From Heptranchias perlo (taxonomy: Eukaryota): DNA of 64,000 bases. The translations under genes and the position numbers were made by a program. Below, one piece after another: positions 11,462 to 14,377 of this stretch; position 1 is the first letter of the stretch; the number at the start of each line of letters is the position of its first letter. The notes beneath the pieces were generated by a model, which did not search any database, was not told the DNA's origin, and saw only the letters and a program-made list of their open reading frames with translations. Location: positions 2,356,001 through 2,420,000 of the forward strand of contig NC_090327.1 in assembly GCF_035084215.1 (NCBI RefSeq), written 5' to 3'.

Positions 11462-11625
11462 GTGGGCTCCAACAAGTACGGCGTGTTCATGCGAGTGAGT
11501 GAGGTGAAGCCCTCTTACAGGAACTCCATCACCATCCCCCACAAAGCCTGGTCCAAGTTCGGCAGCACCTTCAGCAAGTACGCCGAGGAGATGAAGGAGA
11601 TCCAGGACAAACATCGGGACAAAAA
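11462..11625 (+). pseudogene. PUR-family (PURA/PURB-like) gene fragment, C-terminal part of PUR repeat III
   Basis: [48 protein letters not shown] matches the recalled Pur-alpha/beta C-terminus; codons mostly end in C/G, unlike the adjoining CR1. Confidence 0.9.
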
Positions 11626-14377
11626 GGAAAAAGCAGCAACTAAGTGTCACAAAACATATTTGAAAGTTCTTTATCTGAATGCACGTAGCATTCGTAACAA
11701 AATGGACGGGTTAACGGCACAAATAACTACGTATGGGTATGATCTTGTGGCCATTACAGAAACGTGGCTACAGGGTGACAACGACTGGGAATTAAATATA
11801 CCAGGGTATTTAACAATCAGGAAGGACAGGCAGGAAGGAAGGGGAGGTGGGGTGGCTATGTTAATAAAGGAAGGAATCACTGTAATACAGAGAAATGATA
11901 TTGGGACAAAGGATCAGGATAATGAAACAGTTTGGGTAGAGATAAGGAATAATAAGGGGAATAAAACACTCGTGGGCGTAGTATATAGGCCTCCTAATAG
12001 TTGCAACTCTGCTGGAAGAAGTAGTAATCAGGAAATAGTCGGGGCATGTAATAAGGGAACAGCTATAATTATGGGGGATTTTAACTATCATATTAACTGG
12101 ACAAATCAAATTGGGCAGGGCAGCCTTGAGCAAGAGTTTATTGAGTGTATTAGGGATGGATTTCTTGAGCAGTATGTAACTGATCCTACAAGGGGGCAAG
12201 CAACCTTGGACCTGGTCCTGTGTAATGAGCCAGGATTAATTAATAATGTCCTAGTTAAGGATCCCCTTGGAATGAGTGACCATAACATGGTTACATTCCA
12301 TATCCAATTAGAGGGTGAGAAGGTTGATTCTCAAACAAGCGTACTGAGCTTGAATAAAGGAGACTATGATGGTATGAGAGCGGAATTGATTAAAGTGGAC
12401 TGGGAAAATAGATTAAAGGGTAAGACGGTACATGAGCAATGGTGTTCATTTAAGGAGTTATTTTACAACTTTCAAAAAATATATATTCCACTGAGGAAAA
12501 AAGGGTGTAAAAGAAATGACAGCCATCCGTGGCTAAGTAAAGAAATTAAGGATAGTATCCGACTAAAAACAAGGACATATATGGTAGCCAAACTTAGTGG
12601 GAGGATAGAAGATTGGGAAGTCTTCAAAAGACATCAAAAAGTAACTAAAGGATTGATTAAGAAAGGGAAGATAGATTATGAAAATAAATTAGCAAAAAAT
12701 ATAAAAACAGATAGAAAGAGATTCTATAGTTATATAAAAAGAAAAAGGGTGGCTAAGGCAAACATAGGTCCCTTAGAGGATGAGACCAAGAAATTAATGG
12801 TGGGAAACATGGAGATGGCAAAAATGCTGAACAAATATTTTGTTTCAGTCTTTACGGTAGAGGACACTAAGAATATCCCAACACTGGAAAAACAGGGGGC
12901 TCGAGGGGGGGGGGAGGAGCTAAATACGATTAAAATCACTAAGGAATTGGTACTCAGTAAAATAATGGGACTCAAGGCGGATAAATCCCCTGGACCTGAT
13001 GGCTTACATCCTAGGGTCTTGAGGGAAGTGGCAGTCGGGATTGTGGATGCTTTGGTAATAATTTTGCAAAATTCTCTGGACTCGGCAAAGGTCTTGGCAG
13101 ATTGGAAAACTGCTAATATAACACCCTTATTTAGAAAGGGTAGTGGGCAGAAGGCTGGAAATTATAGACCAGTTAGCCTGATATCTGTGGTGGGTAAAAT
13201 TTTGGAGTCTATTATTAAGGAGACAGTAGCGGAACATTTGGATAAACATAATTTAATAGGACAAAGTCAGCATGGCTTTACGAAGGCGAAGTCATGTCTG
13301 ACAAATTTGCTTGAGTTCTTTGAGGACATAACGTACAGGGTGGATAAAGGGGAAGCAGTGGACGTAGTGTATTTAGACTTCCAGAAGGCATTCGACAAGG
13401 TGCCACATAAAAGATTATTGCTCAAGATAAAGAATCACTGGATTGGGGGTAATATTCTGGCATGGGTGGAGGATTGGTTATCTAACAGGAAGCAGAGAGT
13501 TGGGATAAATGGTTCATTCTCGGACTGGCAACCAGTAGCCAGTGGTGTTCCGCAGGGGTCGGTGCTGGGTCCCCAACTCTTTACAATCTATATTAACGAT
13601 TTGGAGGAGGGGACCAAGTGTAACATATCAAAGTTTGCAGATGATACAAAGATGGGAGGGAAAGTGGAGAGTGAGGAGGACATAAAAAACCTGCAGGGGG
13701 ATATAGACAGGCTGGGTGAGTGGGCAGAGATTTGGCAGATGCAATACAATATTGGAAAATGTGAGGTTATGCACTTTGGCAGGAAAAATCAGAGAGCAAG
13801 TTATTATCTTAATGGCAGGAAACTGGAAAGTACTGCAGTACAAAGGGATCTGGGGGTCCTAGTGCAAGAAGATCAAAAAGTTAGTGTGCAGGTGCAGCAG
13901 GTGATCAAGGCGGCCAACGGAATGTTGGCTTTTATTGCTAGGGGGATAGAATATAAAAACAGGGAGGTATTGCTGCAGTTATATAGGGTATTGGTGAGAC
14001 CGCACCTGGAATACTGCATACAGTTTTGGTGTCCATACTTAAGAAAAGACATACTTGCTCTCGAGGCAGTACAAAGAAGGTTCACTCGGTTAATCCCGGG
14101 GATGAGGGGGTGGACATATGAGGAGAGGTTGAGTAGATTGGGACTCTACTCATTGGAGTTCAGAAGAAGGAGAGGCGATCTTATTGAAACATATAAGGTT
14201 GTGAAGGGGCTTGATCGGGTGGATGCGGTAAGGATGTTCCCAAGGATGGGTGAAACTAGAACTAGGGGGCATAATCTTAGAATAAGGGGCTGCTCTTTCA
14301 AAACTGAGATGAGGGGAAACTTCTTCACTCAGAGGGTGGTAGGTCTGTGGAATTTGCTGCCCCAGGAAGCTGTGTGA
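11462..14377 (+). CDS. Chimeric ORF: PUR fragment fused to CR1 ORF2 (APE endonuclease plus reverse transcriptase); expression unknown
   Basis: 971 open codons; EN motifs LNARS, ITETW, YRPP, GDFN, LDLV, SDH; RT motifs [31 protein letters not shown]; first in-frame ATG at 11489. Confidence 0.75.

What the first reader, a model, noticed from the sequence alone, without database searches (positions are those of the whole stretch)
11462..14377. Host PUR (Pur-alpha/beta repeat III) fragment fused in frame to an intact CR1 endonuclease-reverse transcriptase, amplified three times
Seen: about 55 codons of PUR-like sequence replace the CR1 5' region and supply in-frame ATGs (11489, 11591). In unit 1 the frame is open for 971 codons with the EN and RT catalytic motifs present; only about 30 C-terminal residues are lost (TGA where the subfamily has GAA). 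Units 2 and 3 carry disrupted copies. Known: PUR proteins bind purine-rich ssDNA/RNA, repeat III mediates dimerisation, and LINE template switching makes mRNA-LINE chimeras. I do not recognise a described PUR-CR1 fusion. Inference: either a one-off chimeric retrocopy or a nascent gene/new element variant. The copies are young, so one open frame out of three is also compatible with neutrality.
Basis: partly seen in the sequence, partly recalled or inferred. Interest (0 to 1): 0.8.

Follow-up and report, generated by a model that had tools for sequence, protein, structure and literature searches.

The report
Jumping gene captured host PURB gene
In this (likely shark) genome a family of CR1 jumping genes has replaced its own front end with almost the whole coding sequence of the host gene PURB, joined in frame to its copying enzyme, and sits at dozens of separate sites; it likely spread by making the hybrid protein itself, which would be a rare snapshot of such an element picking up a new part from its host.

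Summary
The fusion is real but is neither a one-off nor a new gene. The three window copies are 5'-truncated, tail-less members of a dispersed CR1 subfamily (40 scored junction matches on 26 contigs), triplicated by an actin-array duplication. Full-length elements (~3.68 kb) start at the PURB start codon, carry all three PUR repeats (~97% identical to the single host PURB), join ORF2 in frame at a 4-nt microhomology and end in the CR1 microsatellite tail. In the parent family this place holds a 5'UTR and an esterase ORF1. The chimeric lineage gained its own linked substitutions, and those in ORF2 are mostly silent (24 silent : 16 others, versus 204:558 for private changes; p=2e-5), so source copies likely translated ORF2 in cis; the only in-frame AUGs before the endonuclease are PURB's. 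All 15 full-length heads keep frame and a YY1/TISU-like start, likely an internal promoter. Selection on the PUR amino acids is not shown (5:3, p=0.41; an invariant proline changed). The window ORF drifts neutrally (21:5). Expression untested. I found no PUR-LINE fusion in the papers and protein sets searched; PURA/PURB are reported partners of human L1 ORF2p.

The parts
11462..11620 (+). PURB-derived segment (host codons 214-267, PUR repeat III); begins at element position ~566 because this copy is 5'-truncated
   Evidence: Pfam PurA; 5 differences in 162 nt from host PURB; extents
11621..11624 (+). PURB/CR1 junction, AAAA microhomology shared by host PURB and parent CR1; in frame
   Evidence: parent-type loose ends start at 11621
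11678..12283 (+). AP-type endonuclease domain of CR1 ORF2
   Evidence: Pfam PF03372 aa 73-274; motifs
13154..13789 (+). Reverse transcriptase domain of CR1 ORF2
   Evidence: Pfam PF00078 aa 565-776
11462..14404 (+). Copy W1 of the PURB-CR1 element: open 971 codons, premature TGA 14375-14377, ends ~170 nt before the 3' tail; early branch of the chimeric lineage
14404..14925 (-). Inverted 522-nt fragment of the same CR1 family abutting W1
   Evidence: 97.7% to 13519-14040
11451..11461 (.). 11-nt filler between the older target CR1 and W1
   Evidence: comparison with the empty site in unit 4
28635..31571 (+). Copy W2, tandem duplicate, frameshifted
41368..44305 (+). Copy W3, tandem duplicate, stop and frameshifts
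54134..54818 (.). Unit 4: empty-site homologue; about 685 nt of an older minus-strand CR1 that are replaced by the insertion in units 1-3

Best explanation
The window holds dead, truncated copies of a CR1 retrotransposon subfamily in which the PURB coding sequence replaces the 5'UTR and esterase ORF1 and is fused in frame to ORF2; the subfamily likely copied itself for many rounds using a predicted ~1,190-residue PURB-endonuclease-reverse transcriptase protein. Origin (inferred): during insertion the RT left CR1 RNA at the start of ORF2, switched to PURB mRNA at a 4-nt microhomology and copied it to about its start codon. Why it survived (inferred): the captured piece brings a YY1/TISU-type start site and a CpG-rich internal promoter, plus AUGs that all read into ORF2, so it replaces both the promoter and the route to ORF2 translation. 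A later in-frame 72-nt loss of the Gly-rich stretch gave the common head. Whether the PUR domain itself helped (nucleic-acid binding, unwinding or dimerisation in place of ORF1p) is open; I put that at about 0.3.
For: Shown: 40 of 40 scored junction matches (96 candidates) at 96-100% on 26 contigs; staggered 5' ends and a common CR1 (TTCTTATG)n tail; flanks of 11 of 32 tested copies map side by side in an uninterrupted repeat elsewhere, commonest gap -10 to +11 nt; donor = single-copy host PURB, copies 1.8-4.6% from it; 20 of 20 sampled parent copies have non-PUR sequence at the junction and the long ones carry an esterase ORF1; ladder of linked chimera-specific substitutions; of 30 of 47 loci with one late marker, 10 were PUR-headed, 15 truncated, 5 parent-headed and those 5 carry only 1-3 of 18 markers; a 3' marker has 434 exact hits and pairs with 3 of 100 listed contig-1 junction sites, all 3 PUR-headed; shared ORF2 changes 24 silent: 15 amino-acid: 1 stop versus private 204: 527: 31, Fisher p=2e-5, ratio ~0.24; 15 of 15 full-length heads in frame over several head lengths, while private PUR-part indels are 12 of 13 frameshifting; every ATG in PURB codons 1-267 is in the ORF2 frame; full-length copies share sequence only to about -3 (A at -3 in 13 of 15, A at -2 in 14 of 15); host start reads CAAGATGGCGGA, the motif that begins mammalian L1 (PMC5381506) and the TISU core (PMC2518114); head GC 60%, CpG o/e 0.95; L090 keeps a 1,118-codon open PUR-EN-RT frame.
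Against: No transcript or protein shown: no junction-spanning contig in 4 of 4 runs laid, though PUR-side cover was zero even in DNA runs, so the test is uninformative. No sign of selection on PUR residues: shared changes 5 amino-acid: 3 silent versus 104:33, p=0.41, and Pro103, invariant in 97 of 97 PUR proteins, is Leu in 24 of 30 copies. 0 of 15 full-length copies has an unbroken frame. Markers are mosaic across copies and the parent sample is 20 copies from one contig, so some 'chimera-specific' silent changes could come from unsampled parent subfamilies. One shared change is a stop (5 copies). A 3-4 nt leader is shorter than the +5 to +30 position reported for TISU. Tree support is weak at most deep nodes and 3 of the PUR-headed copies (L068, L070, L078) fall among or beside parent copies.
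Confidence: 0.8

Rival explanations
1. Non-autonomous passenger: the chimera was transcribed from the PURB head but moved in trans by the abundant parent's ORF2p; the silent-biased markers were imported by repeated recombination with parent subfamilies.
For: Parent is far commoner (1,594 exact hits of a junction-side 29-mer versus 27 of a junction 32-mer); marker patterns are mosaic; parent sample only 20 copies.
Against: Linked late markers occur only in PUR-headed or truncated copies; most markers are dispersed single changes rather than blocks; 15 of 15 heads stay in frame; the full ORF2 is retained where passengers usually lose it (own knowledge).
Confidence: 0.1
2. One master locus: a 5'-truncated CR1 inserted in frame into a PURB allele or duplicate, was driven by the native PURB promoter and shed all copies; possibly a host-selected fusion gene.
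For: It would also give 5' ends at the PURB start; one copy (L071) keeps the complete native N-terminus; selection on ORF2 would fit a host gene.
Against: PURB upstream sequence and PURB C-terminus/3'UTR each match one real locus only (the second hit in 71 is a 48-nt, 85% match); no full-length copy is intact; several heads and marker sets coexist.
Confidence: 0.08
3. One reading: a one-off retrocopy, or a nascent gene in the actin array.
For: W1 is open for 971 codons; only 2 of 39 copies have a frame this long.
Against: Dispersed family; W1 private changes 21:5 and a stop shared by all three units; 2 of 3 units broken; 3' end lost.
Confidence: 0.02

Closest known systems
Vertebrate canonical CR1 LINEs (esterase ORF1 + APE-RT ORF2); the parent family here
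   Same: ORF2 is ~96-97% identical to the parent, same tail, same 5' truncation pattern. ORF1 loss is recurrent in CR1-group elements (PMC13343379, section 15 read).
   Different: 5'UTR and ORF1 are replaced by a host coding sequence in frame with ORF2. That survey reports esterase as the only identifiable ORF1 type in CR1 and L2 lineages; its 8 'pur' word hits shown were colour names.
mRNA/LINE-1 chimeric insertions and RAP1GDS1-L1PA2 promoter co-option (Law and Burns, bioRxiv 10.1101/2025.02.02.635956; abstract and sections 24, 25 read)
   Same: Sense-oriented 5' piece of a host mRNA on a LINE; proposed route to new promoters.
   Different: Those are 17 single insertions, or 2 independent daughters of one intronic source, with L1 ORFs left in place. 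Here the host piece is a near-complete CDS fused to ORF2, ORF1 is gone, and the chimera founded a lineage with dozens of headed copies and its own ORF2 evolution.
PURA/PURB as partners of human L1 ORF2p (Taylor et al. 2018, PMC5821459; passages read)
   Same: The captured protein is a reported component of nuclear ORF2p complexes whose recovery depends on EN and RT activity.
   Different: There it is a non-covalent host factor of a different LINE clade, and PURA over-expression lowered retrotransposition to ~20%; here it is covalently fused. No binding to CR1 ORF2p was tested.
L1 5'-terminal YY1 site and TISU (PMC5381506 passages; PMC2518114 passages and section 5)
   Same: Same core AAGATGGC at the very 5' end of the element, containing the start codon.
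   Different: In L1 the ATG is not the ORF start (own knowledge); here it opens the fusion ORF, with only 3-4 shared nt upstream.
Transducing retroviruses (v-onc capture) and gene-capturing DNA transposons (recalled, no call)
   Same: A mobile element carries a host coding sequence.
   Different: Those are usually defective or carry the host piece as cargo; here it forms the N-terminus of the replicative enzyme of a non-LTR element.

Membership tests
CR1 non-LTR retrotransposon | ORF2 with AP endonuclease and reverse transcriptase | tested here: met
CR1 non-LTR retrotransposon | 3' end in a short microsatellite, not poly(A) | tested here: met
   family copies end in (TTCTTATG)n; the window copies have lost this end
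CR1 non-LTR retrotransposon | Dispersed, variably 5'-truncated copies with short or no target duplication | tested here: met
CR1 non-LTR retrotransposon | Esterase ORF1, or descent from relatives that have one | tested here: met
   absent from the chimera; present in the ~96-97% identical parent (Lipase_GDSL_2 E 2e-15)
CR1 non-LTR retrotransposon | RT groups with named CR1 references in a tree | not tested
   tree held only copies from this genome; the CR1 label rests on ORF1 type, tail and recalled motifs
PUR protein (PURB) | Three PUR repeats | tested here: met
   host covers PF04845 1-219 of 219 and matches Pur-alpha chains 8cht and 8chw; full-length heads carry host codons ~27-267
PUR protein (PURB) | PURB rather than PURA or PURG as donor | tested here: met
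   copies ~97% to the C23 gene versus 83% and 92% partial to the C14 and C1 paralogues; C23 gene groups with database PURB proteins at modest support
PUR protein (PURB) | ssDNA/RNA binding and dimerisation retained in the fusion | not testable with these tools
   needs biochemistry; constraint on the PUR part not detected
One-off mRNA-LINE chimeric retrocopy | Single insertion that does not propagate | tested here: not met
Domesticated host-transposon fusion gene | Purifying selection at a fixed locus | tested here: not met
   W1 21:5 and L090 30:12 private changes
Domesticated host-transposon fusion gene | Expressed fusion transcript | tested here: inconclusive
   no cover of the PUR side in any run, DNA runs included
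TISU / YY1 initiator | Core AAGATGGC containing the start ATG | tested here: met
   host CAAGATGGCGGA; copies AANATGGC in most of 15
TISU / YY1 initiator | Located +5 to +30 from the transcription start, with YY1-dependent activity | tested here: inconclusive
   shared sequence stops at about -3/-4; no start-site data

The most novel reading that the evidence does not exclude
A vertebrate LINE discarded its own ORF1 and promoter, captured the mRNA of a host protein that LINE ORF2p normally recruits, and ran as an autonomous single-ORF element whose PURB module supplied promoter, start codon and an ORF1p-like nucleic-acid chaperone/dimerisation function: a new ORF1-replacement module caught at birth, with donor gene, parent element, long-head intermediate and descendants all in one genome.
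Probability: 0.3. Interest if true: 0.92.

Novelty: new variant of a known kind. Interest (0 to 1): 0.78.

Why it matters
LINE ORF1 domains and 5' promoters are thought to be swapped in from hosts and other elements, but such acquisitions are old and their donors unrecognisable. Here the donor is still ~97% identical, the junction is resolved to 4 nt, and the selection signal says the hybrid worked. It makes testable how a LINE gains a new 5' module, whether a TISU/YY1 start codon suffices as an internal promoter, whether ORF1p can be replaced by a host nucleic-acid-binding domain, and whether PUR proteins help or hinder target-primed reverse transcription. Practical point: eight database gene models spanning this junction are labelled Pur-alpha-like, Pur-beta-like or uncharacterised, i.e. 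element copies are being counted as PUR paralogues.

Tried and rejected
Read laying: no junction-spanning contig in 2 putative RNA and 2 DNA runs, but the PUR side had zero cover even in DNA runs, so nothing follows for expression or for other species; two earlier attempts laid nothing. Catfish protein P0001 (PurA+EN+RT) looked like a parallel fusion; it is a near-complete PURB followed by an RT fragment and then an unrelated EN-RT ORF, most likely a merged gene model (not checked at DNA level). No junction-spanning protein from a second species among the 120 listed of 168 hits or 5 hits; none of the best 150 cluster representatives reaches into the PUR part. Long target duplications: not found. 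Second PURB locus as master: not found. Selection on the PUR part: not detected. Stimulatory hairpin after the parent's slippery site: none, z -1.3 to +0.6 in 7 copies. Earlier scan findings: none. Paper searches without a PUR-LINE fusion in the listings: (0 papers); two searches were for TISU/YY1 background. Repbase, Dfam, subscription journals and supplements were not searched, so an unannotated consensus may exist there. No structure or complex prediction was run: the PUR part is ~97% identical to a host protein with solved relatives and I claim no binding.

Full report
Observation. The frame 11462-14374 is open for 971 codons and has PurA (aa 1-44, E 2e-15), endonuclease and RT matches. 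Two more copies at 28635 and 41368 are broken. The three lie in 13-17 kb tandem units that each hold an actin gene. A fourth unit lacks the element and keeps ~685 nt of an older CR1 that units 1-3 have lost, so one insertion with a target deletion was later duplicated. The window copy starts at element position ~566 and stops ~170 nt short of the 3' tail against an inverted CR1 fragment, so it has neither end.

It is a family. The junction has 40 of 40 scored matches (96 candidates) at 96-100% on 26 contigs; the element's head has 33 of 33, three of them host PUR genes. I fetched 39 copies and analysed 39 independent ones (38 fetched plus W1; W2, W3 and the local duplicate L100 dropped). They have staggered 5' ends and a shared (TTCTTATG)n tail; full length is ~3.68 kb. 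For 11 of 32 copies with both ends, the flanks map side by side in an uninterrupted repeat elsewhere, so these are separate insertions with short duplications or small deletions. Private divergence averages 1.2% and terminal branches are 1.1-2.0%; I saw no near-identical young pair, so the lineage is probably no longer active. The host is a cartilaginous fish by the labels of its nearest proteins (inference).

Donor and parent. Three host PUR genes were found: PURA-like (C14), PURG-like (C1) and a 287-aa PURB-like gene (C23). Copies differ from the C23 gene by 1.8-4.6%. Its upstream region and its C-terminus/3'UTR each occur once. The element carries PURB to codon 267 and drops the acidic tail; the switch is at AAAA shared by PURB and the parent. 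The parent family is much larger (1,594 exact hits of a 29-mer beside the junction versus 27 of a junction 32-mer). 20 of 20 sampled parent copies have other sequence upstream: a 5'UTR and a 316-aa ORF1 with a Cys-rich N-terminus and a GDSL esterase. One chimeric copy (L071) keeps the whole native N-terminus; 14 have a head with a 72-nt in-frame loss; a genome-wide pattern finds 15 short-head matches, 14 of them these copies.

The lineage evolved on its own. The tree of ORF2 parts is ladder-like with weak deep support (copies under 1,200 aligned nt left out). A late subfamily has linked markers. Of 47 loci with one of them I examined 30: 10 PUR-headed, 15 truncated before or at the junction, 5 parent-headed; those 5 carry 1-3 of 18 markers, as expected from recurrent mutation in a large family. 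A 3' marker has 434 exact hits and pairs with 3 of 100 listed contig-1 junction sites, all PUR-headed, which suggests several hundred mostly truncated descendants. Non-CpG changes shared by at least 4 chimeric copies and at most 1 of 20 parents are 24 silent, 15 amino-acid, 1 stop, against 204, 527 and 31 for singletons (p=2e-5). Selection on a LINE's ORF2 acts through copies that make new source copies (established reasoning), so ORF2 was likely translated in cis. The caveat is the small parent sample and mosaic markers.

How ORF2 is reached. The first in-frame Met within ORF2 lies after the LNARS motif of the endonuclease (Met 81; that this Asn is needed is recalled from L1). Every ATG in PURB codons 1-267 is in the ORF2 frame, and 15 of 15 full-length heads keep frame although 12 of 13 private indels in the PUR part shift it. 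The product is therefore predicted to be a PURB-EN-RT fusion; L090 still reads 1,118 codons across it. In the parent, ORF1 ends T TTA AAC TAG, the ORF2 frame opens five codons earlier in the -1 frame and has no AUG before the endonuclease in the copies with an unbroken frame. That is a classic slippery heptamer (recalled) and suggests that ORF2p was already made with an N-terminal partner; no downstream hairpin was found, so this is a lead.

How it is transcribed. Full-length copies share sequence only to about -3, so a promoter must be internal or the copies come from one lost master. The host start reads CAAGATGGCGGA, the motif with which almost all mammalian L1s begin and a YY1 site (PMC5381506, passages) and the core of TISU, which serves transcription and translation from very short leaders (PMC2518114, passages and section 5). 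The head is 60% GC with CpG o/e 0.95. G at -4 in 8 of 15 copies (p=0.006, post hoc, one of ten positions looked at) may be a copied cap. None of this was tested functionally, and a 3-4 nt leader is shorter than TISU's reported range; the next AUG is also in frame.

Does PUR do anything as protein? Not shown. Shared changes in the PUR part are 5 amino-acid: 3 silent (p=0.41 against singletons); two fall at variable positions but Pro103Leu hits a residue invariant in 97 of 97 proteins. In favour, only indirectly: all three repeats are kept, and PURA/PURB co-purify with human L1 ORF2p depending on EN and RT activity, although PURA over-expression inhibited retrotransposition (PMC5821459, passages).

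The window ORF is not a gene: private changes 21:5, changes shared by the three units 4:1 plus the stop. Copies average 2.8 frameshifts and 1.6 stops, so a long open frame is uncommon (2 of 39) but shows no constraint. Expression and presence in other species remain open (uninformative; junction-spanning database proteins all carry one shark species label; none among the best 150 representatives).

Novelty. Single mRNA-L1 chimeras and one promoter co-option with two independent daughters are described (bioRxiv 10.1101/2025.02.02.635956, abstract and sections 24-25); a 2026 survey found only esterase ORF1s in vertebrate CR1/L2 (PMC13343379, passages and section 15). Searches listed no PUR-LINE fusion and no LINE lineage founded by in-frame capture of a host CDS (listings and abstract starts seen); Repbase, Dfam, closed journals and supplements were not seen. 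Verdict: new variant of CR1; autonomy likely (0.8); PUR protein role possible (0.3); interest 0.78.

Noticed in passing
L106:2735, L107:2750, L108:2701, L115:2728, L119:2747, L113:2942, L103:2897: Parent CR1 ORF1 ends on a TTTAAAC heptamer directly before its stop; a -1 slip enters ORF2, which has no AUG before the endonuclease. Present in 11 of 13 copies that reach this point. Possible programmed frameshift making an ORF1-ORF2 fusion; G-rich but no strong hairpin downstream; searches listed no paper on it.
   Followed up: partly
window 6198-7202, 21827-22999, 37401-38405, 50148-51152 (minus): Tandem array of at least four near-identical cytoplasmic-type actin genes whose codons ~42-375 lie in one open exon after an AG acceptor; the first coding exon was not found within 700 nt upstream.
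   Followed up: partly
window 13519-14040 / 14404-14925 and equivalents in units 2, 3: The inverted arms are closer across units (98.5%) than within unit 1 (97.7%), hinting at conversion or flipping between the arms.
   Followed up: no
window 15453-17522 and 33386-34487, 46131-47232, 55342-57367, 61304-62844: Repeated element with a Myb/SANT-like ORF (E 5.5e-6) and a 33-nt tandem repeat of variable copy number in a long open frame; likely the non-catalytic gene of a Harbinger-type transposon (recalled).
   Followed up: no
window ~12900-12920: A G-run in the ORF2 linker is where many copies' longest frames end, including W2 and W3; mutation or assembly hotspot.
   Followed up: no
L101-L120 upstream of the junction: Most parent copies carry a ~225-nt in-frame extension between ORF1 end and endonuclease that 2 of 13 lack.
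   Followed up: no
G000:C1:194242059-194242079: One-mismatch hit to the short-head motif that was not among the analysed copies.
   Followed up: no
window 786-1225; 28006-28132, 40739-40865, 53484-53643: 33-nt and 34-nt minisatellites with unit-specific copy numbers.
   Followed up: no
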